Assembly: GCA_958295925.1 (NCBI GenBank)
Contig: OY282384.1
Location: 1,572 to 65,571 of the forward strand
DNA: 64,000 bases
Direction: 5' to 3'
Source of the DNA: an uncultured Acidimicrobiales bacterium
GTDB taxonomy: Bacteria > Actinomycetota > Acidimicrobiia > Acidimicrobiales > CATQHL01
In this document: positions 1 through 64,000 of the stretch, one piece after another
How the letters are laid out: every line of letters starts with the position of its first letter
Position numbering within the stretch: position 1 is the first letter of the stretch
Position numbers and translations under genes: made by a program
Notes under the pieces: generated by a model
The model's database searches: none
Seen by the model: only the letters and a program-made list of their open reading frames with translations
What the model was told of the DNA's origin: nothing

Positions 1-1
1 A

Positions 2-139
2 CTCCGCGGCTACGTGCCGGGATTCCTGGAAGGATTTCATATCGGCATCGCCGAGGAGCTGGCCGACCAGGCCTGGGAGAGCCGAACCATCGACTACGAC
101 GACGTCTATAAGGGCATCAGCTACCGGTACACCGCGTAG
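2..139 (+). CDS. 3-prime end of a gene truncated by the window edge, function unknown
   Basis: Frame open from position 2 (..GYVPGFLEGFHIGIAEELADQAWESRTIDYDDVYKGISYRYTA), ends TAG 137-139. Confidence 0.4.
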   Translation, partial: LRGYVPGFLEGFHIGIAEELADQAWESRTIDYDDVYKGISYRYTA

Positions 140-304
140 CCGTAGAGCTGCCCAGCCATAGACCCGCCCAGCAGGGAAACCGACCCCACCGGGCGGCCCA
201 AGGCCCCATCCCAACGCCCCATGCCGTCAAATCAGTAAAGTGAAAGAAGGAGGCAGCCCGCCACGAACTATCCCAAACTCCTGGACCTGGGCGACCCCAA
301 GGAG

Positions 305-751
305 GTGAACCGGCTCTACTCGGAGCAGGACTTCGAACAACTCAGCCCGGGCCGGCAGGAGCACCTGCTCAAGCGGCTGATCACCGACCTGGCCGAGTTC
401 AAGAGCCTGAAAGCCTCCACCCTGTGGCTCAGCGACCCGGCCCAGAGCGGCGACACCGGACAATACGGGAACTTCCCCGAACCCCTGGTCCAGGCCGGAG
501 TGGGAGCCAGCTTCCACGTCCGCAACCTGACCGGAATCTTCAACCAGAAGGGCAAATACTGGAGCATCGGCATGGCGCTGCACGGCAGCTACGTCGCCGA
601 CCACGTCGCCGCCGACAAGCTGGCCAACCTGCACCAGCACCTGCCAAGGATGCTGGAACTCTTCCGGACCCGCGCCGACCGGGCCGGGACCTTCGAGTAC
701 GCCGGACCGACCCAGCAACTGGCAGCAGGAGGCGCCCCGCCATGGAGCTGA
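305..751 (+). CDS. hypothetical protein, family A copy 1
   Basis: Track ORF; aligns with next gene (KEVNRLYSEQDF/KEVHRLYPEQEF, STLWLSDP/STLWLTDP, PEPLVQAG in both). Conserved LDLGDPKEV lies upstream of GTG 305, and AGGAGG 248-253 is followed only by in-frame ACG 263, so the real start is probably 5-prime of 305. Confidence 0.6.
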   Translation: MNRLYSEQDFEQLSPGRQEHLLKRLITDLAEFKSLKASTLWLSDPAQSGDTGQYGNFPEPLVQAGVGASFHVRNLTGIFNQKGKYWSIGMALHGSYVADHVAADKLANLHQHLPRMLELFRTRADRAGTFEYAGPTQQLAAGGAPPWS

Positions 752-1227
752 CCAGCCCGACCCGGATAGACCTGGACAACCCCAAGGAAGTCCACCGACT
801 CTACCCGGAACAGGAGTTCAACCGACTGACCCCAGACCAGCAGGCCCAGCTGCTCCAACAGCTGCTCGACGACCTGACGAAAGAAGACAAGCTGGACCAG
901 TCCACCCTCTGGCTCACCGACCCCGGGCGAGTGGGCTACGCCGGCCCCCGCGGCACCTACCCGGAACCGCTGGTCCAAGCCGGAGCAGGCACCAGCTTCA
1001 GCGTCCGCAAGCTCTCCCCAATACTCTACGGCGGAGGCCACGACTCTCACAGCATCGGATATGCGCTGCCGAACAGCTGGGTCGACGACCGCTGGAGAGC
1101 CGTCAGCCCGCTGAACGACCTGCACCGGCACATCCCGGAGCTGCTGGAAGAACGTCGACCGCGCAGGGTGGAACTAGGCGTAGACCACCGCCCACCGAAG
1201 GAAGGAACCCCCACCCCAGGCAGGTAA
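742..1227 (+). CDS. hypothetical protein, family A copy 2
   Basis: ATG 742 inside track ORF 424..1227 (upstream part is Arg/Pro-rich off-frame junk); paralog of 305..751; overlaps previous stop by 10 nt. Confidence 0.65.
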   Translation: MELTSPTRIDLDNPKEVHRLYPEQEFNRLTPDQQAQLLQQLLDDLTKEDKLDQSTLWLTDPGRVGYAGPRGTYPEPLVQAGAGTSFSVRKLSPILYGGGHDSHSIGYALPNSWVDDRWRAVSPLNDLHRHIPELLEERRPRRVELGVDHRPPKEGTPTPGR

Positions 1228-1269
1228 AACCGTATCCTAAACGCTATATAAAGAAGGAGGAACTAAACG

Positions 1270-1434
1270 ATGCTACATCAACTTTCCGAAGGCCGCATCC
1301 CCGGACGGCCGAACACCCAAGGGACCAGCCCCCAGGAAGAACTGATCCGGCTCCGGCTGGAAGAGATTAAGCGCGAACGCCGGGAGCACGTCCGCCATCA
1401 GCGGCAACTCGGCCAAGCCCAGGAGTCCGCCTAA
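1270..1434 (+). CDS. small hypothetical protein (54 aa)
   Basis: AAGGAGG at about 1253-1259, ATG 1270, MLHQLSEGRIPGRPNTQGTSPQEELIRLRLEEIKRERREHVRHQRQLGQAQESA, TAA 1432-1434; below the track length cutoff. Confidence 0.45.
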   Translation: MLHQLSEGRIPGRPNTQGTSPQEELIRLRLEEIKRERREHVRHQRQLGQAQESA

Positions 1435-1458
1435 GGGCAGAGTCCCTCAGGGACGACA

Positions 1459-1487: not shown

Positions 1488-2597
1488 CTAGGCCACCACT
1501 ACGCCGCCCAGGAGTAGGCCCACGCCCCAGCCACCCACAGAGCCAGGGCCAAGCCCCAACCAGGCCGCCAGCCGCCCCGAAACCAGGTTGACCATGAGAT
1601 TGGCCGCCACAATGGCCGCCGTCCCCACGATGAGAAAGTCCACCCGGGCCACCCCGATGCCCAGGAAAAAGGCCAGCCAGACCAGACTGGCCGCCGGCGT
1701 CACATACCCCAGGGCATTCACTCCCAGATTGTCAGTCAACGTATTGGCGATGCGGAACAGGACGCCCCCGGCGGCAATCAACAGCCCGCCCCCGCCGGCA
1801 ACGACCACCAGGTCCAGGGACATGGCTTCACCCCAGGCCACGCCCAGACCCAGCGTGACCACCCCGCTGGCCAAGCTGCTCAGCATATAGCCCACGATAA
1901 CGCCGAAAATCGCCAGCGAACCCGGAGTGTAACCGGCCACCGGGGCACCCCCAAGGCCAGCGACTGGAACAGCCCGCAACCGGTCAACCAAGTCCCGCGC
2001 CCAGCGGAAGGTGAACGCGGAAAAAGAAGAAGCCAACGCCGCGGCTACCGCCAGGCCCAAGCCGACCGCCAGCGTAGAGAAACCAGCATCTCCCAGCGCC
2101 AGCCCGCCGGTCTGACTGGCCACCACGAACCCCACCCCGGCGAAGACTACGACCAGAGAAGGCGCCATCGCCCGAAAGTTCCGCCGGTACTGGCCCAGCC
2201 GAAAGAGCCGAGCCATGAGTATTATCATCAAGATCGGCCAGAGCTCATACAAGACCGCCGATACTGATATATCAACGAACTGCGCCGACGCGGCCAGAAA
2301 AGCCAGGTCGAAGTAGCTCAGCAGCGAGAAGAACATGGTCCAGCGGACCGCGCTGCGGGCTATTATTGAACATACCCCCGCATTAACCAGCAAAGACCGA
2401 TACCCGGCCGCCAGCGCCACCAAACAGCCCAGGACTATGCCCATCCGCATCGTCGCATTGAACAAGAGCGGGCTATCCACACCGCCGCTGCGGGCCACCG
2501 CCAACGGCAGAAAGGGCAATAACAGAACGGCGACGAACATCAAAGCCGTCGCCTTCAGATTGGCCCCGCCCTGTATTGGTTGCTGCGCTGCTACCAC
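1488..2597 (-). CDS. polytopic membrane protein, DMT/EamA-like transporter (copy 1 of 3)
   Basis: 369 aa, about 10 hydrophobic helices in two halves; protein-level conservation with 23700..24848 and 36379..37495 (TDNLGVNALGYVTPAASLVWL / TDNLGINGLAYLVPVLSLAWL / TDNVGVLSLAYLAPLFTLAWL). Family assignment by resemblance only. Confidence 0.65.
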   Translation of the reverse strand: MVAAQQPIQGGANLKATALMFVAVLLLPFLPLAVARSGGVDSPLLFNATMRMGIVLGCLVALAAGYRSLLVNAGVCSIIARSAVRWTMFFSLLSYFDLAFLAASAQFVDISVSAVLYELWPILMIILMARLFRLGQYRRNFRAMAPSLVVVFAGVGFVVASQTGGLALGDAGFSTLAVGLGLAVAAALASSFSAFTFRWARDLVDRLRAVPVAGLGGAPVAGYTPGSLAIFGVIVGYMLSSLASGVVTLGLGVAWGEAMSLDLVVVAGGGGLLIAAGGVLFRIANTLTDNLGVNALGYVTPAASLVWLAFFLGIGVARVDFLIVGTAAIVAANLMVNLVSGRLAAWLGLGPGSVGGWGVGLLLGGVVVA

Positions 2598-3698: not shown

Positions 3699-3727
3699 CC
3701 AGAGAGAACAAGGCGCTGCCTTTTTTC

Positions 3728-3775
3728 TTTCCCGGTTTGGGGCCGTGTTGGGGTCCCGCGTTTCGGCGGGGTTCC
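3728..3775 (+). repeat. intergenic TTTCCCGGTT element, copy 1 (long form)
   Basis: tttcccggtttggggccgtgttggggtcccgcgtttcggcggggtt; about 80% identical to copies at 61766 and 62561. Confidence 0.6.
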
Positions 3776-3813
3776 CGACAGGGCAGAGAGACTTGACCAA
3801 CAGACCATCCGCC

Positions 3814-3860
3814 GCTGGGCGAAGGGAGTTAAGCCTTCCTTCGCCCAGCGGCCTTTTTTT
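3814..3860 (+). terminator. rho-independent terminator
   Basis: GCTGGGCGAAGG / CCTTCGCCCAGC perfect 12-bp stem, 12-nt loop, then 7 T (3854-3860). Confidence 0.75.
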
Positions 3861-15588: not shown

Positions 15589-16842
15589 ATGAAGAAAGAA
15601 AATGAACCGAAATTCCTTGCCGTGGACTTTTACTGCGGCGCCGGCGGAACCACCCGCGGGCTGAGCGACGCCGGTGGATACGTGATCGCCGGCGTAGACA
15701 AGGACCCGGCCTGCCGCCGCACCTACCAGGAGAACAACCCCAACTGGACACTCGACCGGGGAACCCCCGAATACCTAGAGATGGACATGTTCCCAGCAGC
15801 CCCAGACCATCCCGAGGGCCAGCAGGACGAAATCATGTCCGAACTCAACCGGCTACTCGGCCCAGCCAAAGAGAATCATCCGCAGCTCCCCCTGCTTTTC
15901 GCCATCTGCGCCCCGTGCCAATCCTTCACAAAGTATCCGCAGCCGCACATGTCGGAAGGGAGAACGCGGGCCCGGGCGACAGACAGCAGCCTGATCGCCC
16001 AGTCCCTGCCCTTCATCGAACGGTTCAAGCCCGAGATGATACTCTGCGAGAACGTAGCCGGCATCGAAAAGAGCAGGTACGCCGCAGTCTGGACCGACTT
16101 CATCGAGCAGCTAAAAGAGAAAGGGTACCGAGTGGGAACCAGCACCGTGTGCGCCGCCGACCACGGCGTCCCGCAGAACCGCAAGCGCTCCATCATAATG
16201 GCCGTCAAACGCAAAGACGGCGACGAGGCGAAGAACGAACCCATCGCAATGCCGCAGCCAACCGGAGAAGGCCGAAAGCCGACGGTGGCTGACGCCATAT
16301 CACACCTGCCGGCACTGCAAGCCGGGGAGAAAGACGAGAAACTAAGCAACCATGCGTGCCTGAACCTCTCGGAGACGAACAAGAGCCGACTACGCGCCCT
16401 CGCGCCCGGACAGCCGAACCACCTGCTCCCCGACGAACTGGCGCTCCCCTGCCACCGCCGGCTAGAGAAGAAAGGGAGAAAAGGATTCGAGGATCCCTAC
16501 ACCCGCCTGCGGCCGGACCGCCCGGCCCCGACGATAACGACGCGGTTCAACAGCGTGTCCAACGGGAGATTCGGACATTACGACCCGGAGCAGACGAGGG
16601 GACTATCCCTGCTGGAAGGAGCGCTGCTCCAATCCTTCCCAGAAGGATACCGGTTCCGCGGAGGAAGTGCGGAGACCGTCGCCCGGATGATCGGAAACTC
16701 AGTCCCGCCGAAGCTGGCAGCCAGCATGGCGGAGCACCTATGCGCCGCGTACGGCAAGAACCCGTCCCAGGAGAACCCATACGACGCCTGCGAGGCGGAA
16801 CCAAGGAGGACGCAATGCCTGAAGAGGGAAAAGAGACCATAG
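15589..16842 (+). CDS. dcm: DNA (cytosine-5)-methyltransferase
   Basis: Motifs I FYCGAGG, IV CAPCQSFT, VI LCENVAGI, VIII QNRKR, X GNSVPP. Confidence 0.95.
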   Translation: MKKENEPKFLAVDFYCGAGGTTRGLSDAGGYVIAGVDKDPACRRTYQENNPNWTLDRGTPEYLEMDMFPAAPDHPEGQQDEIMSELNRLLGPAKENHPQLPLLFAICAPCQSFTKYPQPHMSEGRTRARATDSSLIAQSLPFIERFKPEMILCENVAGIEKSRYAAVWTDFIEQLKEKGYRVGTSTVCAADHGVPQNRKRSIIMAVKRKDGDEAKNEPIAMPQPTGEGRKPTVADAISHLPALQAGEKDEKLSNHACLNLSETNKSRLRALAPGQPNHLLPDELALPCHRRLEKKGRKGFEDPYTRLRPDRPAPTITTRFNSVSNGRFGHYDPEQTRGLSLLEGALLQSFPEGYRFRGGSAETVARMIGNSVPPKLAASMAEHLCAAYGKNPSQENPYDACEAEPRRTQCLKREKRP

Positions 16843-17210
16843 AAGAAGCCGCAGACAGAGCGGCGAAGCGGATCGAGGAGCCCCCTGGAGACGACGGCAT
16901 GGACGCCGTGCTGCTCCGCGCGTTGGACGGAGGCGCGCTGGTAGGAGCACTGTGGCGAAACGCCGCGGACCAGGAAGCCGGGGCCGAGCCCGGGAAAACC
17001 AAGGACGCGAAAGGGAAGGAGCAAGGAGTGACAGGGAACGAGAACGACAACGGGAAGAAGGCGTCGCTGCCCGCGAAGGGGCTGCAGGCCCTGCTGGACT
17101 TGGCGGAAGGGTACGTCAGCGAGAACGGAGCCGAAGCTGGACGAAGATACGCCGACCCGGCCGAGCTAGAGAAGGCGATGAGGAACGCCGCCACGGCCTT
17201 GAAACGATAA
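16815..17210 (+). CDS. acidic hypothetical protein in the dcm-vsr operon
   Basis: AAGGAGG 16803-16809, ATG 16815 overlapping the dcm 3-prime end by 28 nt; 131 aa. Confidence 0.5.
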   Translation: MPEEGKETIEEAADRAAKRIEEPPGDDGMDAVLLRALDGGALVGALWRNAADQEAGAEPGKTKDAKGKEQGVTGNENDNGKKASLPAKGLQALLDLAEGYVSENGAEAGRRYADPAELEKAMRNAATALKR

Positions 17211-17223
17211 CTGCGAGGACGGA

Positions 17224-17652
17224 ATGACGGACTTCCTCACCCCGGAAGACCGCTCCCGGCTGATGTCCAAGATCAGAGGAAAGGACACCCGGCCAGAGAA
17301 AACCGTGCGCCAGCTCCTCTGGCACGCCGGATTCCGCTACCGGCTGAACGACAGGAAGCTGCCGGGAACCCCAGACCTGGCGCTAGCCCGATACCGCACC
17401 GCCGTCTTCGTCAACGGATGCTTCTGGCACCGCCACGACTGCCGGAAAGGCACGAAGCTCCCCAAGACAAACCGGCAGTACTGGCTGAAGAAATTCGCCG
17501 ACAACGCCGCGCGAGACGCCGCCAATCTCCGGATACTATCCCAGTACGGATGGACGACCACGGTGATCTGGGAATGCAGAATGGAAGAGGGGACGCAGCA
17601 CCTGCTGTTGGAGCTGTCCGAAAAGAGACGAAGGGAGAAGGACCGAACATGA
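17224..17652 (+). CDS. vsr: very short patch repair endonuclease
   Basis: RSRLMSKIRGKDTRPE..LPGTPDLALARYRTAVFVNGCFWHRHDC..TNRQYWLKKF..GWTTTVIWEC matches E. coli Vsr along its length. Confidence 0.93.
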   Translation: MTDFLTPEDRSRLMSKIRGKDTRPEKTVRQLLWHAGFRYRLNDRKLPGTPDLALARYRTAVFVNGCFWHRHDCRKGTKLPKTNRQYWLKKFADNAARDAANLRILSQYGWTTTVIWECRMEEGTQHLLLELSEKRRREKDRT

Positions 17653-24848: not shown

Positions 24849-24927
24849 AACAGCAGGCCAATCCCTAACCCCGCCAGCGGCGCTACGACAAGACAACCAC
24901 CAGACCGACAAAGGAGAACCAAACAAC

Positions 24928-25455
24928 ATGCGCGACCCCAAGCCCAAGATGGCCCAGCCCCTGCCCCACACCGGCCCCCACCCCGGGGCGGACGGCAGAG
25001 TAAGAATGTTTAGACCGGAGCCCACACCACCGCCTAGCCAATTAAATACTAAACCCATCCAGCACCTGCCCAACGACTTTCGCAAGCCCCAGGCCGCAGT
25101 GGCCGACCAGGCCCAGGCCGTACTGGCCAAGCTGCCCGGCCCCAACCTGGCCCGGGAATACGACTTCAACTGGTTCTTAACCCAGTACTTCAATAATTGG
25201 TCCCCGGAGCTCCCCCAGCCCCGCCTGGGTTGCACCCCGAGCGACGAAATCATCGCGGAATGGCAGACCCAGGATTATATTTGGGAACTGATCGTCCAAC
25301 CCGGCGACCACAGCACGGAAATGTACCGGCTGGAGGACGCCGACACCCCGGAGCAACGCAGCCGTCCCCACCGGATCGAACCCGACCTGGAAACCGCCCA
25401 GGGTTGGCGGGAAGTGCTAGACTTTCTGGGACTGAGCGACACCAGAGACGAATGA
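24928..25455 (+). CDS. hypothetical protein, family D
   Basis: AAAGGAG SD; C-terminal module NWSPELPQPRL..EIIAEWQT..WELIV..GWREVLDFLGL shared with 25961, 32102 and 35450 genes. Confidence 0.65.
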   Translation: MRDPKPKMAQPLPHTGPHPGADGRVRMFRPEPTPPPSQLNTKPIQHLPNDFRKPQAAVADQAQAVLAKLPGPNLAREYDFNWFLTQYFNNWSPELPQPRLGCTPSDEIIAEWQTQDYIWELIVQPGDHSTEMYRLEDADTPEQRSRPHRIEPDLETAQGWREVLDFLGLSDTRDE

Positions 25456-28470: not shown

Positions 28471-28494
28471 CTCACCCACCAGGAGGCAATCGAC

Positions 28495-39133: not shown

Positions 39134-42100
39134 ATGCAGAACGACCCCGCCCAGACCACCGACGCCACTCAAGACGCCATCCAGCAAGCCCTCCAGTCCC
39201 TGGAAGAAAACAACCCCAACCCAACCCAAGGCCGCTGGCTGGAAGCCATAACCATCAGCGCCGCGCCCCTGATTAAAGAATACGACCTAGCCGCCTGCCA
39301 TTCCTGGGCCGACTGGCCCGAGCGGGAAGACCACTTCCCGGAGACTTCCCAGCAGGACATCGGCATCGACGCCGTAGCCCAACGCCGGTCCGATGGCGCC
39401 TACGTCGCCATCCAGTGCAAAGCCCGGCAACTCAACGAAGCCGGCCAGGGCCAGGACATCCAGAAAGGCGAATTGGACAAGTTCGTCGCCGCCTCCAGCA
39501 ACCCCCTCTGGGCCGAACGCTGGCTGGTCACCAACGGCGACAACCAGATCAGCGGCAACGCCGGGCAAGTGGCAACCATGTCCGACCCCGGCCGCCCGGT
39601 CAAGCTGGTCAACCTCCACGCCGACCTGGTGGCTCAGGCCCAGAGCCAAAGCTACCAGGAAGAACCCTGCCCCCACTGCCGGGCCCAGGAGGACGCCTTC
39701 CTGCCGGATAACTACATTGACAGTAACGACGGCGCGAGCCGGCCCATCCAGACCAAGTCCTGCATGCAGCACGAGGCCGTCGCCGCCAGCGTCCGAATAC
39801 TCAAAGAGCACGAACAATCCGATACCGGCGGCCTCCCCGTCGGCCAGGCCCGCGGCCGACTGATATTACCCTGCGGCACCGGGAAGACCCGCATATCACT
39901 GCGAATAGTGGAAGAACTGACCGACCCCGGGCAGCTTTCGATAGTACTCTGTCCTTCAATCGCATTGGTCGCCCAGCTGCGGCAGGAATACCTCAACCAG
40001 GCCCACCGGCCCCTCCGCGCCCTGGCCGTCTGCTCCGACCAGACCGCCGGCTACGACCCCCGGGGCGAGGATAAGCGCAACACCGCCGAAGACCCCACCC
40101 TGGACAACAGCAACGTCAGCGCCAAGGAACTCAAAGGCAAAGTAACCACCGACTCCCAGGAGATCGCCGACTGGATACGGCAAGGACAAGCAGAGAACCA
40201 GGAAAGCGACGACAAAGCCATCAGCGTCATCTTCGGCACCTACCAATCCGGCGCCGCCGTCGCCGAAGCCCTGAAGCTGGCCGAAGCCGAGGTCCAGGTC
40301 CTCATCGCCGACGAGGCCCACCGCACCGCCGGGCTGAAAAAGAAGCAGGGCGCCTCCGCCAAGGCCTACGAGGCCGAGCAGCGCATCCGCGACTTCACCC
40401 TGTGCCACGACCAACAGGCCTTCCCGGCAAAATATCGCATCTACCAGACCGCCACCCCGCGGATCTACACGCAGCAAGCCCGCCGGGCCGTCCCCGACAG
40501 CGACTGGGTGGTCCGCTCGATGAACGACGAATCCATCTTCGGCGTGGTCCTCTACGAAAAACAGTACGTCGAAGCCGTCAGGAACGAATGGCTCAGCGAC
40601 TACAAGATAATCGCCCTGGGAGTGAACGACCACCAGGCCCTGGAACAAGCCAATCTGATGGCCCTCCAGGACACCGGAAAAGGGACCAACCAGCTGACCG
40701 TCACCAAGTACCTGAAGGGGCTGGCCTTCGCCCTGGCCATGGCCGGCGCCACTCAGTGGCCGCCCAACCCGGAAGACAAGCAGGACGACCAAGACGGCCA
40801 GAACAACCAACAGACCCAACAACAGCGCAACCAAACTGAAAAGCTCCACCTGCCGATCCAATCCTGCATCGCCTTCATGAACACGGTGGAGAAGTCCAAG
40901 AAGATGCAGCGAGAGCTGAGCACGGACACCATCCGCAGCTGGCTCCGCATCTGGATGGCAGAGAACAAGATGCCGGAAGGGCCGGCGCACTATCAACTGG
41001 AGCACCTGGACGCGAGCAGCAACATCGTCAAACGCGACAACGCCAAACGCAAACTGGCCCAAGCCACCAAAGAAGCACCCCACGCCATCATCAACGTCGG
41101 CATCTTCGGCGAAGGGACCGACTCACCCTCCCTGAACGCCATCGCCTTCCTGGAACCCCGGCGCAGCCCCATCGACGTGATTCAAGCCGTGGGAAGAGCC
41201 ATGCGGACTTCTCCAGGAAAGGAAACCGGCTACATCATCTGCCCCATCGTGATTCCGCCCAACGCCGACCCCGAACAATGGCTGAAGCACAGCGGACCCG
41301 ACGACGGCTGGAAGGAGCTGGGCGATATTCTCCTAGCGCTCAGGGCTCATGACTCCAGGATCGAAGACAACCTGGCCGACCTGCTGACCCTCTACGTCCC
41401 CAAGCCGCCGCCGGTAGTGACTAATCTAGTAGCCATCGCGATCGGAGAGGACAAGCGTTTCAGCTACCGGGAGCATACCGGAGAACCCGGCCAAGCCGTG
41501 GAAGACCTGGAACTCGTGCTGACCGACCAGATGCCGATCAATAGAAAGTTCCGGCCGGTAACCGAAAGGACCGGGAACGAAGCCGCCCGGCTCAGCGTCA
41601 CCGCCGCCAGGACCGGCCCGCTTTCCGAGGAAGACGGCCCCATGTTCCAAGGGCTGAACGGCAGCCCCGAAGGCGCCGGCCAGCCCGGCACGGCCCCCGC
41701 CGCCGAAGCAGCGGCAACGATTGAAACAACCCAAGCTATTACAGCCCATCTCCCGGAACCCACCGAGATCCTAGCCGGTAAGAAGCACAGCGACGGCTCC
41801 CTGGAAATCCGCCAGGATTGCGTGGTACGGCAGAAGCCCCAGAACGACGGCACTCCAGGGCCAATCGACCTGGACAAGTCCAAGAAGCGCGCCCAGGACA
41901 TGCTCAACAAAGGCGAAGGCCTCCGCCTGGCCACCGGCGAGAACCGGCCGCCCCGCCGCCAGCGCCGCAGCATCCACGAGGAATCAGCCTACCAGCTATT
42001 GATGCGGACCAACCTGGACGAACACGGCCAGGCCATCCAGATGAACCTCCTGGCCAAGTCGGGACTGGTCCAGAACCGGCCCCAGCGGGACGCCAACCTG

Positions 42101-44475: not shown

Positions 44476-45462
44476 ATGAAGGTATGGGAGCCGAACCCAA
44501 ACGCCACCCGGGAGCAGAGCAAGGCCTTCGGAAACGCAATAGGCACAATTGACCTCACTCTCAAGAGCATGCTCAAATCTCTAGAACCCCAAGACGAATA
44601 CCTAGAGCTAAGGGCCCACGTCCAGCAACCAGCTGTAGAGCTTGGGAAACTACTGCCCATCGGAAGACACGGAGGGAACCTATTAGCAGAGGTAATCCAA
44701 GACCTCTTGTTGCACCCACTGCAAGCACCCACAGAAGCTAAACCATTCATCAAGCAATTCGAGTTCGAGATGCTTTACTGCAAATGGATCACCGAGCCAA
44801 AAGCAATGCAGACTCTGAGAAGCATGGCCAGAGGCAGCCAACGCGGGATATTCCATCCACGACCGGCAGAAGTAGTACACACTACTAAGTGGCAGCTCCG
44901 CAAAGAGATCCACCCGATGCACGGGATAAAGCACACCGGCGAGGGCTTCTTCCAAACCGAGGAACGCCTCTTCCAAGATTACAAGGAACCGACAATCGAC
45001 ATCGGTGCTTGGGGAAGCCAGCCACTATACGAGACAATCACGGAGGCCGGAGAAACCAAACAATTCACCCTCCTAGAGACAATCCGTTACATTCGGAACA
45101 CAGAAGGAGCCCACAGCGACACCAGTAAGCGGAAGGAGAGGGAAATCGCCCTCATGGACGTATTTGGCGACGCCGACAGCTTCAGCTACCCTCACTGGGT
45201 AATCATCCTGACCGCAGTCTACTTACGGAACGAATACGTCCTAGCACTGGAAAGAGCACCAGAGCATTGGAAACCGTACGTAGACCAGAAGCTAGTCCTT
45301 CACCTGACCGGAAAGTTACCCGAACCAAAGAGGATGCGCGGCGTCCAAGTACTAGAACCCAAGTCAGCAATGACCATTTACCTCCCAGACAACGTCAGCT
45401 CCCTGCCGACAGAAGGACAACGCCACTGGCTACATCGCACCATCACGAACCGCCACAAGTAA
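44476..45462 (+). CDS. hypothetical protein with a HEPN-like Rx4-6H motif (lower GC)
   Basis: 328 aa; IRYIRNTEGAHSD fits RNxxxxH; gene is visibly AT-richer than its surroundings. Confidence 0.5.
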   Translation: MKVWEPNPNATREQSKAFGNAIGTIDLTLKSMLKSLEPQDEYLELRAHVQQPAVELGKLLPIGRHGGNLLAEVIQDLLLHPLQAPTEAKPFIKQFEFEMLYCKWITEPKAMQTLRSMARGSQRGIFHPRPAEVVHTTKWQLRKEIHPMHGIKHTGEGFFQTEERLFQDYKEPTIDIGAWGSQPLYETITEAGETKQFTLLETIRYIRNTEGAHSDTSKRKEREIALMDVFGDADSFSYPHWVIILTAVYLRNEYVLALERAPEHWKPYVDQKLVLHLTGKLPEPKRMRGVQVLEPKSAMTIYLPDNVSSLPTEGQRHWLHRTITNRHK

Positions 45463-45529
45463 ACCTACCCCAGAGAAACACCAACCGACATAAAATAACA
45501 CTCAAGAGCCGAGAAGGAGAACGAAAGCG

Positions 45530-46135
45530 ATGAGTAAGAAAGACACCCTTAGAAACCACGTGGACACTGAGCTCAGAGCAATCCTAAACTTGACCATAGA
45601 AGAGAATGGAATACTACATTCCATCCCAGGAGAGGAAGAAGTAATCCAGGAAGGAACCATCTCTGTATCAGAACTACTACAGATGCGTTACCCACTCAGA
45701 GGAGAGATTACGAATGCCAGAGGAGGATATACACTCTTCAATTTCAGCTTGCCCAGCAGGAAAGAAGTAAGGAGACTAAAAGACCAGTACTTCCTTGAGC
45801 ACGAAAATATGAGATACGTACGCGTCTCAGAGCTCGAAGCAGCAGATTTTCCACAATTAGAATCTGCACAGTGGAGCAACAAATACACCCTAGTAGAGGC
45901 TACAAGGTACCCACCGGAATTCCGCAACGCGATCAAATTCTCGAACGCACGAGCAACTCTGTACAAAGCCTTGATCCAAGGCTTAGACGACACCGAGGAG
46001 AAACTGGAACTAAAAGGGAATTTCGAGAATGCGTTTACCGCATTCAAGGACCAGATAAAGATCACCATAGACGGAGCGAGCCTCAAGGTAGAATGCTACT
46101 TCAAGGTCGCAAGTAAAAACAAGGAACTAACATAG
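45530..46135 (+). CDS. hypothetical protein (lowest-GC gene in the window)
   Basis: GAAGGAG SD; track ORF 201 aa; no motif recognised. Confidence 0.55.
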   Translation: MSKKDTLRNHVDTELRAILNLTIEENGILHSIPGEEEVIQEGTISVSELLQMRYPLRGEITNARGGYTLFNFSLPSRKEVRRLKDQYFLEHENMRYVRVSELEAADFPQLESAQWSNKYTLVEATRYPPEFRNAIKFSNARATLYKALIQGLDDTEEKLELKGNFENAFTAFKDQIKITIDGASLKVECYFKVASKNKELT

Positions 46136-58255: not shown

Positions 58256-60496
58256 CTACAGACCAAGCAAGGAAAGCCCGAGACGCTGCCGCGCAACATC
58301 AATCGAACAAATCCTCACCTTCATAACCTGCCCAGCAGCAAAAGCATCTGCCGCCCGCCAATCCTCCCCCGGTGGGATCTCGGTCTTATGCACCAAGCCT
58401 TTCAAACCCAGCTCAAAGCGGACGAAGATACCAAAATCAGCCAGGCCGTCATAAACCCCTACTATCACGTCCCCCACGGAATGACGCTCAGCCAGGAAGT
58501 CCCAAGGGTCCCGGAGACACGGAAGAGTCAACCGCACGTTCCCCTTCTCCGGGTCCCTACCATCCACGGAAGTCACCCGAACAACGACAGGATCGCCCAC
58601 TGAAAGCTCACCCAATTCCTGGGCAGCGAGCATAGAGAGACACTCCGAAGGAACAAGACCATCCACAACCCCCAACGAGACAAAAGCCCCATGCTCAGTA
58701 ATCGAAGACACTCTACTGCTGAACTCCTGGCCCACCTGGAAAGACTGCCGCCGCCCCCGCCGTACAGCCTCAACCCCACCGGCAGTGTCCAACTCCACCC
58801 ACGGACCCCACCCATGCCCGTTCACCGCCCGGACGCGGTAACGAGCACCAGCAACAAGGCTCCGCCCCACCATCGTAGAGAAGGCGCCAGAGCGACCACC
58901 CACTGAAACATCCCGATCCGACTGCCATTCCCCAGCATGATGCTGTACCTCAAAATGCGTCACGGGAGAATAACCGGACCACACCGGCATCTCCCAGGAG
59001 AAGCCATAAGCGTCTCCCCGCTGATAAACCAAGGACAAAGAGCGCACCGCGCCAGGAAAAGCACCTTTCACCTGCACCGACGAACCGTGCCAAGGCGTGG
59101 AATAACCCCGCCACCTTGCCCGAACACGATATTCGTAAAGAAACGTCTCCAGAGGAGGCACCAGCGGTTGATCCACAAAATCGACACCCTCGGTCTCAGG
59201 GAAGACCTCGTCCTCGCTGAACCCAGAAAGAGAAGAGACATACCGGACAACTTCAAAAACGACGCCGTCAGGACGGCAGGACAAGCTCCAAGAAAGGTCG
59301 ACCATCCCACTCCCCGGGCGGACCGCAGCCCGCAGCGGAGACAAACCCAGAACAGAAGAAACCGCCTGCACCAACTCCTCCTCAGTGAGAGAAATCAGGG
59401 CCCAAGGCCCAGGGATACCAACATCGCTAATACCCCGCACCCGAACCGAAAGACCCGACAAGTCGGTTACCTCGTAAGAATAAGGAACATCCGAACAGAC
59501 ACACTCGAACCGGACCGACCCATCGGAGAATTTTTCCACCGGACAAGAACAGGGAACCCCCGGAACGGTTTCGACGGCAGCCCAGGAACCAGAGAAAGAA
59601 TCCCAAGACTCCAACTCATACGCGCGAGTAGGAAGGATCTGCCGCGGCCCCAAGTCGCCAGAGAGTCCCCACTTCAAACCGAAAAGGAAATTTTGATTCT
59701 CCGGATCAAAGGACAGCCCAGCCGACTTCAACGCCAGCAGCGGAACCGCAGAGACACTGGTCACCTCAGCAAAGCGCGCAGCGCCAAAAACCGCCCGCTC
59801 CTGCTTATAAGCCTTCAAAGCCCATTCACACCGCCACGCCGTCTGACGACTATCTAAAGGCGGCGAAAGCCAACGAATCCGATGCTCACCCCGATTGCGA
59901 GTATCAGAATTACGAACCTTCTTCCAATGTTCGTCATAAATGAGAACAAACTCAGAGGAACGATACTCAACGACCCTAGAGCTATAGGCCCCTGGATTCC
60001 GAATATCATTACGCCCCGCCATATACAAGGCATTCTTAGCAACAACCTCATGTTGAAACTGACGAAGCGAGGGATTGTAAGTCATACCAACGTAACCAGT
60101 CTCCAGCTGGTAGACAAAGAATCCTTCACGAAGCAATGGCTTACCCTTGCACCCAGGGACAATCCCATCAACCGGCTCAACAGAACAAACATTGCTAGTG
60201 CAACTGGACGGCTTGCCCCCACAGGAGAGATCAAGCGTCACCAACCACCCAGCACAGAACGGACACATTGGAGAATCAACTTCCAGATAATGCTTTTCCT
60301 TGTGATCGGGATCGACACAAGCACGAGCGCAAGCGCCACAGACAAACTCGGACTGCGACTTAGCAGAACCGCACATGGCACAATCCAGGAGCAACAAAGG
60401 GTCCAGCAACCCCAAAACACGGTTCATCTCAGGAAGATGAGAACTCTCCCCAGCCAGGAACCGCCGCGACCAGACGTCACGATACTCAGTAGTCAT
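58256..60496 (-). CDS. multidomain protein: zinc ribbon + GIY-YIG nuclease + FN3-like repeats + two S1 RNA-binding domains
   Basis: 746 aa. CAMCGS..CGACARAC; FFVYQLETGYVGMTYNPSLRQFQHE (GIY-YIG); YEYRVRARW and ARYRVRAVNGHGWGPW (FN3-like); GQEFSSRVSSITEHGAFVSL and VGDVIVGVYDGLADFGIFVRF..GLVHKTEI..GQVMKVRICSIDVARQRLGLSL (S1). Overlapping + ORFs are Arg-rich junk. Confidence 0.75.
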   Translation of the reverse strand: MTTEYRDVWSRRFLAGESSHLPEMNRVLGLLDPLLLLDCAMCGSAKSQSEFVCGACARACVDPDHKEKHYLEVDSPMCPFCAGWLVTLDLSCGGKPSSCTSNVCSVEPVDGIVPGCKGKPLLREGFFVYQLETGYVGMTYNPSLRQFQHEVVAKNALYMAGRNDIRNPGAYSSRVVEYRSSEFVLIYDEHWKKVRNSDTRNRGEHRIRWLSPPLDSRQTAWRCEWALKAYKQERAVFGAARFAEVTSVSAVPLLALKSAGLSFDPENQNFLFGLKWGLSGDLGPRQILPTRAYELESWDSFSGSWAAVETVPGVPCSCPVEKFSDGSVRFECVCSDVPYSYEVTDLSGLSVRVRGISDVGIPGPWALISLTEEELVQAVSSVLGLSPLRAAVRPGSGMVDLSWSLSCRPDGVVFEVVRYVSSLSGFSEDEVFPETEGVDFVDQPLVPPLETFLYEYRVRARWRGYSTPWHGSSVQVKGAFPGAVRSLSLVYQRGDAYGFSWEMPVWSGYSPVTHFEVQHHAGEWQSDRDVSVGGRSGAFSTMVGRSLVAGARYRVRAVNGHGWGPWVELDTAGGVEAVRRGRRQSFQVGQEFSSRVSSITEHGAFVSLGVVDGLVPSECLSMLAAQELGELSVGDPVVVRVTSVDGRDPEKGNVRLTLPCLRDPWDFLAERHSVGDVIVGVYDGLADFGIFVRFELGLKGLVHKTEIPPGEDWRAADAFAAGQVMKVRICSIDVARQRLGLSLLGL

Positions 60497-61269: not shown

Positions 61270-61289
61270 TTTCCCGGTTCGCGGCGTGG
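61270..61289 (+). repeat. intergenic TTTCCCGGTT element, copy
   Basis: CAGCC-ccc-GGCTG hairpin then cttctttcccggttcgcggcgtgg. Confidence 0.55.
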
Positions 61290-61348
61290 GGCGTCGCCAG
61301 CCCCACGATCGACTTTCCCAACTCTTATTCATAAAGGAGGACATATTC

Positions 61349-61663: not shown

Positions 61664-61745
61664 ACCGCCCTCCCGGCCCGACACAAGCCCCCCAGGGCCT
61701 CTCAGCAGCTACCCCGCTGCCCGGGAGCCCCCCAGGGGGCCAATC

Positions 61746-61808
61746 AACGCCTACCCCGGCGTTTCTTTCCCGGTTTCAGGCCGTTTGGTTCCGCGGTTCG
61801 GGCGGAGT
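61746..61808 (+). repeat. terminator hairpin + TTTCCCGGTT element (long form)
   Basis: AACGCC-N6-GGCGTT then tctttcccggtttcaggccgtttGGTTCCGCGGTTCGGGCGGAGT; last 22 nt identical to 62584-62605. Confidence 0.7.
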
Positions 61809-61891
61809 CGTCGTGTCTTGGAGTTTTATAGACGTGAGACCGCCCGCGCCGCAGAGAATCAGGCAAATCTTAAAGAAAGCAGGTGAAAATT

Positions 61892-62470
61892 ATGTCCTTC
61901 AAACCCTTCCACGGCATGATCATCGTCCCCCGGGAAAAGCAACCCGTCGTCTTCCAGCCGACCCAGCCGCTGGACACCCTGCCGCGCATGGTCTTCCAAA
62001 ACGACCCCGTGGCCCAGGTCATCAACTACATCAAGGCGACCCCGCCCCGGATCGCAGGCTGCCTCTATCGCGACGGCCAGGTCATCCAGGGCCTGATCGA
62101 AGAGAGCACTCGCGACCGCAACTGGAACTTCGTCATCAATCGGCCCTACGCCTTCCCGCTGCTGCACGGCGACTTGGAAAAGTGGTACGGCCCCCACATC
62201 TATGGGCTGCACGCGCCGGACCGCACCTGGCTGCTCTATATCGACCACGAATACCGCCCCCACGGGAATTCGGGCAACGTCATTCTGCATGAGAATACGC
62301 CCGGCGCCATCGACCGGCTGCTCAGCGGCGACTTCAGCCAAGGCTGGCGGATGGACAAGTCCGCCCACACAGTCGGCGGCGCCATGCGCGACGCGGCCAA
62401 GACCCACCAGTGGGTGCTGGAGAACCACCTCCGCGCGGCGGAGCAGGCTGCTGCAGCAGCATCAGCATAG
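61892..62470 (+). CDS. hypothetical protein, family F copy 1
   Basis: AGGTGA SD, ATG 61892; TWLLYIDHEY..SQGWRMDKSAHTVGGAMRDAA parallels DWLLWVNPSL..PKGWRFDAAMGWKLAGLA in the next gene. Confidence 0.6.
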   Translation: MSFKPFHGMIIVPREKQPVVFQPTQPLDTLPRMVFQNDPVAQVINYIKATPPRIAGCLYRDGQVIQGLIEESTRDRNWNFVINRPYAFPLLHGDLEKWYGPHIYGLHAPDRTWLLYIDHEYRPHGNSGNVILHENTPGAIDRLLSGDFSQGWRMDKSAHTVGGAMRDAAKTHQWVLENHLRAAEQAAAAASA

Positions 62471-62506
62471 CCGGCCAGCGGCAGCTACCGCACTGTAGTA
62501 AAGCCC

Positions 62507-62563
62507 AGTCCCCTGGGGAGCAGCACCCCCCAGGGGACTGGCAGCCCCTCCCAGGGGCTTTTT
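62507..62563 (+). terminator. double-hairpin rho-independent terminator
   Basis: AGTCCCCTGGGG / CCCCAGGGGACT (12 bp), then AGCCCCT-ccc-AGGGGCT followed by TTTTT. Confidence 0.8.
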
Positions 62564-62605
62564 CCCGGTTTTCGGCCCGGGGGGTTCCGCGGTTCGGGCG
62601 GAGTG
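62561..62605 (+). repeat. intergenic TTTCCCGGTT element (long form)
   Basis: tttcccggttttcggcccgggGGTTCCGCGGTTCGGGCGGAGT. Confidence 0.7.
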
Positions 62606-62685
62606 GCTTCGCTTTTCGGAGTCATTCGACGGCCCAGCGCCGCCGGACCCAGACCGGCAAACTTAAAGAAAGGAAGTGAAAGAAA

Positions 62686-64000
62686 ATGAGTAACGGCAAC
62701 AACACGGGCAACCTCAACGGCAGGCCCACCCAGGTTATCGACCACGGCATCCGCGGCAAGACCGGCCAAAAGCCCGGCGAATGGACCGAAGTCCAACCCA
62801 TCCTCCAGGTCCACGAACCCATGACCACCTTCCCGGACATCTTCTACCATCCCACGCCGGTCCAGAACTTCATCGACCAGGTCGCCAACGGCCTCTACAA
62901 GCTGATGGACGACAACATGGCCCGCCTGCGGGGCGAAAGGAATCCCCGGGCCGTCTTCGACCAGGAATGGCTCAGCCAGGTGGTGGAAAGGAGCAACCAG
63001 CAGCAGCCCGGCATCTTCGCCCACGAACTCTATTTGCCGGACGCCGGCGACGTCTTCGTCATGAACGGCGACTGGCTGCTCTGGGTCAACCCGAGCCTGA
63101 ACCTCATCGCGGTGTTTCCCAACACCCAGGACTCCCTGGACTATATCCAATCCAACCAGGACGCCCCCAAAGGTTGGCGCTTCGACGCCGCCATGGGCTG
63201 GAAACTGGCCGGCCTGGCCAACGAAGTCCATTACGCCCTGATGACCGGCATCCATGCCGGTCTGCCCAGCAGCCTCAAGCGGAACGACCGGGACCGCTAT
63301 TACCACAAGCTACTGGACGCCTACGCCCAGGTCCGATACCAGAGCCTCTTCGCCGTCAATCCGACGCCGCCCTTCAACGGCGGCGGAGAATGGGACGGCT
63401 TCACGCCCAGCCAGGAAGACCTGCCCGGCGCCCAGGCCGTCCAGGAGCTTCATGACCTCCAGGCCCGCTACCAAGTCCCGCGCGGGCACCAGAAAAGCTA
63501 CAACTTCGACTACGGCGACGTAATCGAACGATGGCTGCTGGCCGACCCCCAGGCCATCACGGAACTCCCCAGGCCCCAGCGCCGCCCGCGCTACGACCTG
63601 GACCGGGCCGCCGCCCGGGCCCAGAGCCGATTCCAGGGCCAGAAATACGGCGGCCAAATGAAAGACGCCGCCGCCTTCCGCCTTAACCTGGGCGCCGCCG
63701 GCCAGTTCATCCTGTTGACTGAGCACCAGTCCTGGTACGAATGGGTCGACGGCCATGGCGAACAGCAGTTCAGCGACGACGCCTGGCTGATCATGGACCG
63801 TCCCGGCTTGGAATCGGAATTGGACGACCTACAGGTAGACCGCCCCGGCCCGAACGTCTTCCGGCATCGGCTGACCAAGCAGGGCGAAAAGCTCGCCAAC
63901 TGCATCCGCGCGGCCTTGGGAAACATCCCAAGCGCCGCCGCCACTGACGTCCCGCCCACGCCGGTAGAGCACGCGGTAGAGCACGCGGTAGAGCACGCGG
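62686..64000 (+). CDS. hypothetical protein, family F copy 2 (runs off the window; not in the ORF track)
   Basis: GGAAGTGAAAGAAA then ATG 62686; I translated 438 codons by hand with no stop (MSNGNNTGNLNGRPTQVIDHG..VEHAVEHAVEHA). Confidence 0.65.
   Translation, partial: MSNGNNTGNLNGRPTQVIDHGIRGKTGQKPGEWTEVQPILQVHEPMTTFPDIFYHPTPVQNFIDQVANGLYKLMDDNMARLRGERNPRAVFDQEWLSQVVERSNQQQPGIFAHELYLPDAGDVFVMNGDWLLWVNPSLNLIAVFPNTQDSLDYIQSNQDAPKGWRFDAAMGWKLAGLANEVHYALMTGIHAGLPSSLKRNDRDRYYHKLLDAYAQVRYQSLFAVNPTPPFNGGGEWDGFTPSQEDLPGAQAVQELHDLQARYQVPRGHQKSYNFDYGDVIERWLLADPQAITELPRPQRRPRYDLDRAAARAQSRFQGQKYGGQMKDAAAFRLNLGAAGQFILLTEHQSWYEWVDGHGEQQFSDDAWLIMDRPGLESELDDLQVDRPGPNVFRHRLTKQGEKLANCIRAALGNIPSAAATDVPPTPVEHAVEHAVEHA
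63964..64000 (+). repeat. perfect 12-nt tandem repeat, at least 3 copies, truncated by the window end
   Basis: GTAGAGCACGCG x3 in frame (VEHA repeats). Confidence 0.9.

What the first reader, a model, noticed from the sequence alone, without database searches (positions are those of the whole stretch)
1..64000. Orientation-independent T-depletion of the + strand, with gene orientation sorted by protein hydrophobicity
Seen: hand counts of 60-nt lines give A18 C20 G16 T6 at 841 (a + gene), A18 C19 G16 T7 at 24001 (inside a minus-strand gene) and A15 C22 G17 T6 at 59041 (inside a minus-strand gene). So T is about 10-12% against A about 25-30% on the same strand, whichever way genes run. Consequences visible in the window: + strand proteins are Q/E/D/P/T/A-rich; hydrophobic segments in + genes are built from Gly/Ala; the only convincing minus-strand genes are three polytopic transporters and a V/G/S/L-rich protein. 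Spurious minus-strand and alternate-frame ORFs are very long because stop codons are rare. Inference: a strong strand-specific mutational regime such as unidirectional, strand-displacement or rolling-circle-like replication.
Basis: partly seen in the sequence, partly recalled or inferred. Interest (0 to 1): 0.6.

Follow-up and report, generated by a model that had tools for sequence, protein, structure and literature searches.

The report
One DNA strand almost lacks thymine
Across all 64 kb of this bacterial-type mobile-element DNA one strand carries half as much T as A (about 4% T at silent codon positions) whichever way the genes point, so a strand-specific mutation pressure, most likely from an unusually one-sided way of copying the DNA, has reshaped codons and proteins to a degree normally seen only in animal mitochondria.

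Summary
The core observation holds. The + strand is A 26.6, C 34.0, G 26.7, T 12.7% (AT skew +0.35, GC skew -0.12). A exceeds T in all 64 one-kb bins.

At four-fold degenerate sites, read as + strand bases, T is 3.9% in 57 + genes and 4.5% in 5 minus-strand ORFs. Intergenic DNA is skewed too. So the bias acts on the DNA strand, not through amino acids, translation or transcription direction.

A transitions-only equilibrium implies that A>G and C>T changes are together about 7-fold commoner on the minus strand (about 2.7x each if equal). That strand is the template for 92% of the genes. The polarity matches vertebrate mtDNA and is opposite to the closest relative found, whose orthologous primase module has ordinary composition.

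Weaker sub-claims:
- The three minus-strand membrane proteins are paralogues of one orphan family, one of them frameshift-split. "Sorting by hydrophobicity" therefore rests on two independent families.
- Stop codons are only about 13% rarer than in symmetric 60% GC DNA.

The replication mode is untested. The 643,545-bp source contig could not be retrieved, and the window has no skew switch.

The gene content points to a phage- or plasmid-like element: orphan methyltransferases, a Tad2-like gene, a DUF5906 primase and an RM fusion.

The parts
1..64000 (.). Uniformly T-depleted, A+C-rich + strand (G+T-rich minus strand), with no change of sign
   Evidence: T 12.7%, A 26.6%; A>T in 64 of 64 one-kb bins
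58256..60496 (-). Minus-strand gene for an S1 x2 + fn3 protein, with inverted codon usage (gene-strand A3 5%, T3 38%)
   Evidence: (S1, E 4e-16): four-fold sites on the + strand T .035, A .415
1488..2597 (-). Polytopic membrane protein, orphan family, copy 1 (8 TM-like segments, GRAVY 1.18)
   Evidence: listed in the protein database as P0002; four-fold + strand T .055
23700..25253 (-). Polytopic membrane protein, copy 2. The N-terminal ~150 aa of the ORF are doubtful because they overlap the + ORF 24928-25455
   Evidence: 42% identity, E 4e-57; differences by codon position .47/.36/.57, T .025
36379..37495 (-). Copy 3 of the same family, split by a frameshift: N-terminal part 37124-37495, C-terminal part 36379-37083
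   Evidence: blastp to copies 1 and 2, E 1e-8 to 3e-20, covering complementary parts
28192..30456 (+). DUF5906 primase-helicase-like gene, T-depleted (four-fold T .040). It is interrupted by an in-frame TAG at 28468-28470 where homologues have a conserved Trp
39134..44467 (+). 1777-aa Mrr-like nuclease + ResIII helicase + methyltransferase fusion (type IIG/ISP-like). It is the largest + gene and supplies most of the codon statistics
15589..17652 (+). C5 cytosine methyltransferase plus Vsr endonuclease pair. These are widely distributed families, here fully T3-depleted
44476..46135 (+). Two AT-richer genes with weaker T-depletion (T/(T+C) .15 and .27). They may be younger acquisitions still drifting toward the local composition
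3700..3860 (+). T-rich, A-poor intergenic module: a hairpin plus T-run terminator and a TTTCCCGGTTT box. Similar copies lie at 4946-5046, 7734-7834, 12317-12417, 60600-60700, 61242-61342, 61738-61838 and 62533-62633. These are the main places where T survives on the + strand

Best explanation
The window is part of a bacterial-type mobile replicon (phage- or plasmid-like, on a 643.5-kb contig). Its two strands have long experienced different mutation rates.

Transitions that start from A and from C (A>G, C>T) are together about 7-fold more frequent on the minus strand than on the + strand, or about 2.7-fold each if equal. At equilibrium this empties the + strand of T and enriches it in C and A.

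The most likely source is replication that runs one way through the whole region. In it the minus strand is always the one left single-stranded or copied in the error-prone mode (the lagging-strand template or displaced strand), and repair does little to erase the errors.

Codon usage then simply mirrors the strand. + genes avoid NNT and minus genes avoid NNA. Protein composition is dragged along: + proteins lose F/V/L-type residues and gain Q/E/T/P/A. Very hydrophobic proteins are easier to keep on the T-rich minus strand.

Shown: strand-level, orientation-independent bias at silent sites. Inferred: the rate ratios, the replication cause, and the selective placement of membrane proteins.
For: 1. 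Four-fold sites give nearly the same + strand composition in + and minus genes: T .039 against .045, G .266 against .264. Two-fold sites agree. Intergenic DNA has the same sign. Per-gene T/(T+C) is 0-0.19 in 61 of 62 ORFs, whatever the strand.

2. The skew is codon-position specific (T2 22%, T3 5%) and conserved Trp/Phe codons are kept. It is therefore evolved sequence and not a base-conversion artefact.

3. Pooled synonymous sites give T/(T+C) = .089 and A/(A+G) = .418. This implies a combined strand asymmetry of 7.3. By my arithmetic, a two-parameter transition model with about 2.7x each reproduces both the AT skew (about +0.6) and the GC skew (about -0.3) seen at four-fold sites.

4. MMR-defective E. 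coli shows the same kind of bias. [quoted passage not shown]

5. GT is the most depleted dinucleotide on the + strand (rho 0.70). This is in the direction of the 5'NAC3' hotspot.

6. The bias is lineage-specific. The closest primase relative (44% identity) lies, together with its conserved downstream gene, on a 119-kb circular contig with normal four-fold composition: A .13, C .33, G .37, T .18.

7. Protein drift. At differing aligned primase positions the window has a T-free-codon residue against a T-requiring one 63 times and the reverse 37 times (34 against 23 versus a second homologue). The control pair gives 15 against 24.
Against: - No origin, terminus or skew switch was seen, and the rest of the contig is unavailable. 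The link to replication is by analogy only.
- By the near-universal rule that the leading strand has G>C, the minus strand would be the leading strand. Then 57 of 62 ORFs would be head-on to replication, which is unknown for bacterial replicons. The alternative is that the GC-skew rule is reversed here.
- A/(A+G) varies block-wise from .17 to .67 and falls again after 60.7 kb. There is therefore no clean single-strand-time gradient.
- T-depletion at four-fold sites depends only weakly on context: T/(T+C) is .057 after G against .071-.074 after C or T. The E. coli NAC hotspot signature is not clearly present.
- Intergenic T (12.9%) is well above four-fold T (4%). This needs functional T (terminators, promoters) or missed genes to explain it.
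Confidence: 0.6

Rival explanations
1. The minus strand is exposed as single-stranded DNA outside vegetative replication, during frequent conjugative (rolling-circle) transfer. The transferred strand is the template strand of the unidirectionally oriented genes and accumulates A and C deamination.
For: The polarity fits. In plasmid leading regions the anti-defence, methyltransferase, SSB and toxin-antitoxin genes are oriented for transcription from the transferred strand (PMC11541004). The window resembles such an island: three N6/N4 methyltransferases, a C5 methyltransferase, a Tad2-like anti-Thoeris gene, a primase, and 92% of ORFs on one strand.
Against: No relaxase, oriT, T4SS, SSB or ArdA/PsiB-type family appeared among about 55 proteins scanned. 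Known conjugative plasmids are not reported to have skews of this size. A study of leading-region composition reports only higher GC and more variable GC skew (PMC13478746). The closest primase relative sits in a phage-like context with RecT.
Confidence: 0.13
2. Enzymatic editing. A host or element-encoded ssDNA deaminase (acting on adenine, with or without cytosine) repeatedly attacks one strand. This would be analogous to APOBEC acting on retroviral minus-strand DNA, and it fixes T>C and G>A on the + strand.
For: T/(T+C) is uniformly at a floor of about 0.09 in nearly every gene, while A/(A+G) varies widely. This would suit one dominant adenine-directed process on the minus strand. The element is engaged in defence and anti-defence conflict.
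Against: No deaminase family was found in the window. T-depletion shows almost no sequence-context preference, whereas known deaminases have one. Strand specificity would still need an asymmetric ssDNA stage.
Confidence: 0.07
3. Transcription-linked asymmetry. Near-continuous rightward transcription of the whole region, including antisense through the few minus genes, drives the skew through transcription-associated damage or repair.
For: 57 of 62 ORFs are on the + strand, with strong SD sites and + strand terminators. The minus genes are short islands inside + transcription units.
Against: The sign is opposite to the usual transcription signature. The relative L001 shows the ordinary pattern at four-fold sites, with the coding strand G>C and T>A. 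Minus genes, which must themselves be transcribed leftward, show the same + strand T-depletion as + genes.
Confidence: 0.05
4. Selection on mRNA or protein (purine loading, U-avoidance, hydrophilic proteome) or on translation.
For: + proteins are unusually hydrophilic (median GRAVY -0.63) and rich in residues with T-free codons. The + strand is 53% purine.
Against: Minus-strand mRNAs are U-rich and A-poor (gene-strand T3 up to 38%, A3 3-9%). This is the opposite of the + genes. The skew is largest at silent sites and is present in intergenic DNA.
Confidence: 0.03
5. Artefact: assembly from chemically or enzymatically base-converted or strand-biased reads.
For: The sequence has an extreme, uniform single-strand bias and comes from a metagenome-type contig whose proteins are singletons in the database.
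Against: ORFs are intact and have significant Pfam matches. T is kept at codon position 2 (22%) and in conserved Trp/Phe/Tyr codons, but not at position 3 (5%). Terminator T-runs are preserved. A conversion artefact would not respect codon position.
Confidence: 0.02

Closest known systems
Vertebrate mitochondrial H/L strand asymmetry (strand-displacement replication)
   Same: The sense strand of most genes is A+C-rich and the template strand is G+T-rich. The asymmetry is seen at silent sites whatever the gene orientation. The few genes on the other strand have inverted codon usage and V/G/F/L-rich products, as ND6 does. Both A and C deamination-type changes on one strand are implied (PMC3269012).
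   Different: Here T is the nearly absent base, not G. AT skew is +0.35 and GC skew -0.12, whereas the human L strand is roughly +0.1 and -0.4 (from memory). The replicon is at least 643 kb of bacterial-type DNA with SD sites, not 16 kb. No gradient with single-strand time was demonstrable.
Bacterial leading/lagging strand skew, and the transition strand bias of MMR-defective E. coli
   Same: The excess of transitions at A and C is on one template strand and about 2-fold in size (10.1101/346874), against about 2.7-fold inferred here. The G+T-rich strand corresponds to the conventional leading strand.
   Different: The magnitude is far beyond replichore skews; the background median |AT skew| is 0.04. 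AT skew greatly exceeds GC skew. The G-rich strand carries only 8% of the ORFs, the reverse of the usual co-orientation. No switch was seen.
Coding-strand purine/keto skew of one-strand phage genomes (Szybalski-type, transcription-linked), for example the relative L001
   Same: Nearly all genes are on one strand. The gene content is phage-like, and the primase plus downstream gene are syntenic.
   Different: In L001 the coding strand has G>C and T>A at four-fold sites, with T 18%. The window has C>G and A>>T, with T 4%. In the window the skew does not follow gene orientation.
ssDNA phages and rolling-circle replicons
   Same: Strong violation of Chargaff's second parity rule across the whole molecule, with no switch.
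   Different: In those the packaged or displaced strand is the coding strand and is T-rich (from memory: phiX174 about 31% T). Here the coding strand is the T-poor one. Size also differs by about two orders of magnitude.
Anti-defence leading regions of conjugative plasmids
   Same: A unidirectional block rich in orphan methyltransferases and anti-defence genes, oriented for transcription from the strand that is single-stranded during transfer (PMC11541004).
   Different: No oriT, relaxase, SSB or T4SS was detected in the window. No comparable skew is reported for such regions.

Membership tests
Replication-associated strand compositional asymmetry (bacterial type) | Skew present at synonymous and non-coding sites, independent of gene orientation | tested here: met
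Replication-associated strand compositional asymmetry (bacterial type) | Sign of skew switches at origin and terminus | not testable with these tools
   No switch within 64 kb. The 643,545-bp contig could not be retrieved.
Replication-associated strand compositional asymmetry (bacterial type) | The G>C (leading) strand carries the majority of genes | tested here: not met
   The G>C strand is the minus strand. It carries 5 of 62 ORFs.
mtDNA-like strand-displacement asymmetry | Sense strand of most genes A+C-rich and template strand G+T-rich; minority-strand genes with inverted codon usage | tested here: met
mtDNA-like strand-displacement asymmetry | Monotonic gradient of silent-site composition with time spent single-stranded | tested here: inconclusive
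   T/(T+C) is flat. A/(A+G) rises from .28 to .50 over 8-kb bins (r = .90), but per gene it is block-wise and drops again after 60.7 kb.
Transcription-associated asymmetry | Skew follows the direction of each gene | tested here: not met
   + strand T is the same at four-fold sites in + and minus genes.
ssDNA-phage / rolling-circle replicon | The exposed strand is the coding strand and is T-rich | tested here: not met
   The coding strand is T-poor.
Conjugative-plasmid leading region | Unidirectional anti-defence and orphan methyltransferase genes | tested here: met
   (three N6/N4 methyltransferases, a C5 methyltransferase, Tad2-like)
Conjugative-plasmid leading region | Adjacent oriT, relaxase or T4SS; SSB/PsiB/ArdA; ssDNA promoters | tested here: not met
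   None appeared among about 55 proteins scanned against Pfam, PADLOC or PHROGs. oriT and Frpo-type hairpins were not searched.
Huge phage | Capsid, portal, terminase and tail genes | tested here: not met
   No structural family was found in the window; the only PHROG hit to a structural category was a weak (E 7.6e-4) match to a minor head protein on a coiled-coil protein, not taken as evidence. Only 10% of the contig was seen, so the element as a whole is untested.
   No Pfam or NCBIfam hit even at E<=10. The model is too poor to search with (pLDDT 39.5). Only polytopic topology is shown.

The most novel reading that the evidence does not exclude
The 643.5-kb contig is a giant, almost entirely orphan-gene bacterial extrachromosomal element or huge phage. 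It is copied by a strictly asymmetric, mitochondrion-like (strand-displacement or one-way) mechanism with little mismatch or deamination repair. This gives the strongest departure from Chargaff's second parity rule known for a large prokaryotic dsDNA replicon. Most genes run head-on to the fork, and the proteome has adapted, including relegation of polytopic membrane proteins to the T-rich strand.
Probability: 0.3. Interest if true: 0.8.

Novelty: new variant of a known kind. Interest (0 to 1): 0.62.

Why it matters
Strand skews in bacteria and phages are normally a few per cent and are used only as markers of origins. Here the asymmetry is strong enough to invert codon usage between strands, shift amino-acid composition and possibly constrain which strand a gene can live on. 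Effects of that kind are textbook for animal mitochondria but, to my knowledge, not described for a large prokaryotic element.

If the cause is replication, the element offers a natural experiment on three things:
- what uncorrected, one-sided replication errors do to a genome at equilibrium;
- how proteins tolerate a near-ban on T-containing codons;
- whether a replicon can keep more than 90% of its genes head-on to the fork.

There is also a practical point. Standard gene callers trained on one codon model miss the minus-strand genes. Mine missed all three membrane paralogues, and the public protein set appears to lack one of them.

Tried and rejected
- Retrieving the source contig or its neighbours. 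The look-up of encoding contigs failed on four window proteins. GTDB representative genomes, JGI metagenomes, IMG/VR, INPHARED and PLSDB all returned nothing. Only the contig length (643,545 bp) and its source (NCBI/ENA) are known.
- Finding relatives that share the skew. The primase and the membrane family are singletons in the word-indexed protein search. The full HMMER search found primase relatives at 44% identity or less. The one whose DNA could be read (L001) has normal composition.
- A search with the intergenic TTTCCCGGTTT...GGCC...CCGCG motif gave only single chance hits of ordinary composition. These were re-used as a background sample.
- Structure prediction of the membrane protein to test 'transporter' gave pLDDT 39.5 and was unusable.
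- Alternative genetic code. Rejected because TAG, TAA and TGA all terminate genes (27, 18 and 12 times) and are followed by SD sites.
- UV/TT-dimer avoidance. Rejected because TT is over-represented given T content (rho 1.21).
- A Vsr-driven T>C bias. The window has a Dcm-Vsr pair, but VSP repair is site-specific and not strand-specific.
- A replication origin at the iteron-like 12-mer array upstream of the primase. There is no skew change there, so nothing was concluded.
- Literature searches for an already described T-depleted replicon found nothing relevant.

Full report
CHECK OF THE OBSERVATION

The window is A 26.6, C 34.0, G 26.7, T 12.7%, giving AT skew +0.354 and GC skew -0.120. T lies between 10.8 and 15.4% in every 2-kb bin. 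A exceeds T in all 64 one-kb bins, and only 2.9% of 100-nt windows have T>A. There is no change of sign anywhere.

For scale, I re-used 124 metagenome and viral loci that matched an unrelated GC-rich motif by chance. They have a median |AT skew| of 0.04, a 95th percentile of 0.16 and a maximum of 0.244 (one 6-kb locus). At 55-66% GC, the rarer of A and T is never below 14.3%.

GENES

I called genes with strand-specific codon models seeded on Pfam-supported ORFs. This gave 57 usable + genes, to which a 58th (30483-31031) was added from synteny with L001. Most are preceded by an AAGGAGG-type Shine-Dalgarno site, and all three stop codons serve as terminators. Translation is therefore of the ordinary bacterial type.

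The minus strand holds four genes:
- An S1 x2 + fn3 protein at 58256-60496 (Pfam E 4e-16).
- Three copies of one orphan polytopic membrane family. Copies 1488-2597 and 23700-25253 are 42% identical (E 4e-57). Their differences are concentrated at codon position 3 of the minus frame (.47/.36/.57).
- The third copy is split by a frameshift into 37124-37495 and 36379-37083.

My + trained caller missed all three membrane genes.

Identified + genes:
- three N6/N4 methyltransferases
- a C5 methyltransferase with its Vsr partner
- a GHKL-ATPase protein with a receiver-like neighbour
- a 1777-aa Mrr-helicase-methyltransferase fusion of type IIG/ISP kind
- four PDC-M09A-like proteins
- a Tad2-like anti-Thoeris protein
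- a DUF5906 primase-helicase-like protein

Most other ORFs have no family. No housekeeping gene, tRNA (apart from one doubtful ARAGORN call) or Rfam RNA is present. The content is that of a phage- or plasmid-like element rich in defence and anti-defence genes.

THE DECISIVE TEST

It does not. Four-fold degenerate sites, expressed as + strand bases, give:
- 57 + genes (n=7717): A .170, C .525, G .266, T .039
- five minus ORFs (n=1252): A .258, C .433, G .264, T .045

The S1 gene alone gives T .035.

In gene-strand terms codon usage is mirror-inverted. + genes avoid NNT, with T/(T+C) = .11 at two-fold sites. Minus genes avoid NNA, with A/(A+G) = .14, and use NNT freely at .50. Per gene, + strand T/(T+C) at silent sites is 0-0.19 in 61 of 62 ORFs on either strand. 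Intergenic DNA shows the same sign: T .129, A .277.

The skew is therefore a property of the DNA strand. It is not caused by amino-acid content, tRNA-driven codon choice, mRNA composition or the direction of each gene's transcription.

It is also not a conversion artefact:
- T is retained at codon position 2 (22%).
- T is retained in conserved Trp/Phe codons.
- T is retained in terminator T-runs.
- T is almost absent at position 3.

SIZE AND NATURE OF THE BIAS

This part is inference. Pooled silent sites give T/(T+C) = .089 and A/(A+G) = .418 on the + strand. I assume a transitions-only equilibrium without selection. Under that model, the excess of A>G on the minus strand multiplied by the excess of C>T on the minus strand is about 7.3, or about 2.7-fold each if equal.

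By my arithmetic this single asymmetry reproduces both observed four-fold skews, AT about +0.6 and GC about -0.3. The large AT skew need not mean an adenine-specific process. It is partly what any such asymmetry produces in a GC-rich background.

However, T/(T+C) is uniformly at its floor, while A/(A+G) varies block-wise from .17 to .67. The T>C component therefore looks stronger or older.

T-depletion is nearly context-free. TT is not avoided (rho 1.21), which argues against UV-type selection. GT is the most depleted dinucleotide (rho 0.70).

POLARITY

The minus strand is G+T-rich, and it is the template strand for 92% of the ORFs.

This is the polarity of vertebrate mtDNA. There the displaced H strand suffers A and C deamination while single-stranded (PMC3269012).

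It is also the polarity expected for the lagging-strand template in MMR-defective E. coli. There transitions are twice as frequent when A and C lie on that template (10.1101/346874).

It is opposite to transcription-linked skew and to ssDNA phages, where the coding strand is T-rich.

The closest relative I could read makes the contrast concrete. The primase (44% identical) and its downstream gene (53% over 118 aa) are syntenic on a 119-kb circular ENA contig, L001. On it all 36 genes lie on one strand and four-fold composition is ordinary: A .13, C .33, G .37, T .18. The orthologous primases have T4 of 21% in L001 and 4% in the window. The trait is therefore specific to this lineage.

There is a conflict. 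The usual rule that the leading strand has G>C makes the minus strand the leading strand, which puts 57 of 62 ORFs head-on to the fork. Otherwise the rule is reversed here. Either way the arrangement is unusual.

CONSEQUENCES FOR PROTEINS

Residues whose codons all need T (FLIMVYCW) make up 28% of + proteins and 43% of minus proteins. Residues whose codons all need A make up 40% and 20% respectively.

All + proteins have negative GRAVY, with a median of -0.63. TM-like segments in + genes use more G/A/I, and those in minus genes more V/F/L.

I compared the primase with its homologues at differing aligned positions. The window has a T-free-codon residue where the homologue has a T-requiring one 63 times, and the reverse 37 times. 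Against a second homologue the counts are 34 and 23. The control pair gives 15 and 24.

So the mutation pressure reaches the protein level. Descriptively, every polytopic protein is on the T-rich strand. Because the three are paralogues, this amounts to one family plus one soluble protein. Selective sorting is plausible, on the ND6 analogy, but it is not demonstrated.

The claim that stops are rare is weak. 19-28 stops per 1000 codons are observed, against 27 expected from base composition and 31 for symmetric 60.6% GC DNA.

WHAT COULD NOT BE DONE

The source is a 643,545-bp contig in NCBI/ENA. It is absent from every DNA collection available here. Cumulative skew, switch points, topology, replication and repair genes and host identity are therefore unknown. 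No other T-depleted relative was found. The searchable literature returned nothing describing such a replicon.

VERDICT

A strand-specific mutational origin is well supported. The specific replication mechanism remains an inference from polarity and analogy. I file it as an extreme new variant of a known kind, strand compositional asymmetry, and not as a new category. It has a credible chance of marking an unusual replication mode in a giant orphan element.

Noticed in passing
window 28192-28560: The DUF5906 primase gene is interrupted. Its conserved N-terminal ~90 aa are encoded in frame at 28192-28467, followed by a TAG at 28468-28470. That position is where P0003 has Trp in the alignment; the other homologues read by eye mostly keep a Trp-Leu motif there. 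The change is TGG>TAG, a G>A change in the favoured direction. It could be a pseudogene, a read-through site or a sequencing error.
   Followed up: partly
window 36379-37495 (minus strand): The third copy of the orphan polytopic membrane family is split into two ORFs in different frames, 37124-37495 and 36379-37083. It is a frameshifted gene or a pseudogene.
   Followed up: partly
window 3700-3860, 4946-5046, 7734-7834, 12317-12417, 60600-60700, 61242-61342, 61738-61838, 62533-62633: These are recurrent intergenic modules, all in + orientation, which locally reverse the skew (A-free runs up to 87 nt). Each has a GC hairpin with a T-run (terminator-like) followed by a conserved TTTCCCGGTTT box. 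In three copies GGCC...CCGCGGTTCGGGCGG follows the box. Seven box matches were found against 1.9 expected. The function of the box is unknown.
   Followed up: partly
window 26468-28190: This is a 1.7-kb stretch without a convincing gene, just upstream of the primase. It contains a 12-mer tandem array (CAGCAACTGGAG x5.2 at 27735-27797) and two shorter arrays. It may be iteron-like or may code for a (QQLE)n / (ATGA)n repeat. No skew change occurs here.
   Followed up: no
window 48459-56165: There are four paralogous PDC-M09A-like proteins: 48459-49430, 51439-53829, 54306-55196 and 55230-56165. Each has an N-terminal TM helix and a glycine-zipper LAWLGGG segment. Two are followed by small paralogues (49427-49807 and 51026-51403). 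The cluster is a candidate defence or toxin cluster.
   Followed up: partly
window 47860-48120: A Tad2-like (Thoeris anti-defence 2) domain protein, Pfam E 1.5e-23. It argues for a phage or mobile-element origin.
   Followed up: no
window 44476-46135: Two AT-richer genes (local GC about 50%) have weaker T-depletion: silent-site T/(T+C) of .15 and .27 against about .09 elsewhere. They may be recent acquisitions not yet ameliorated.
   Followed up: partly
window 17001-21000: This is the only stretch with G>C on the + strand (GC skew up to +0.12), yet T is still only 11-13%. It covers the Vsr, GHKL-ATPase and receiver-like genes next to the C5 methyltransferase.
   Followed up: no
window 7915-9504 and 13118-14764: Two paralogous proteins, each with a single TM helix, a low-complexity linker and a C-terminal HExxH zinc-peptidase-like domain (weak Peptidase_M1 hit).
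   Followed up: no
window 13581-13675 (minus strand): ARAGORN calls a 95-nt tRNA-Arg(TCT) inside the + gene 13118-14764. Rfam finds no tRNA at gathering threshold, so it is probably a false positive.
   Followed up: partly
L001 (ENA ERZ19489113, contig s5679.ptg006278c, 119,419 bp): The closest relative of the primase module carries seven N6/N4 methyltransferase genes and a RecT within 22 kb, all on one strand. It is a methyltransferase-dense, phage-like circular element of ordinary base composition.
   Followed up: partly
window 1-64000, silent sites: A/(A+G) at silent sites varies in blocks: about .2-.35 at 0-8 kb and 60.7-64 kb, and .45-.67 at 44-60 kb. T/(T+C) stays flat. This suggests modules of different age or a second, non-uniform mutational component.
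   Followed up: partly
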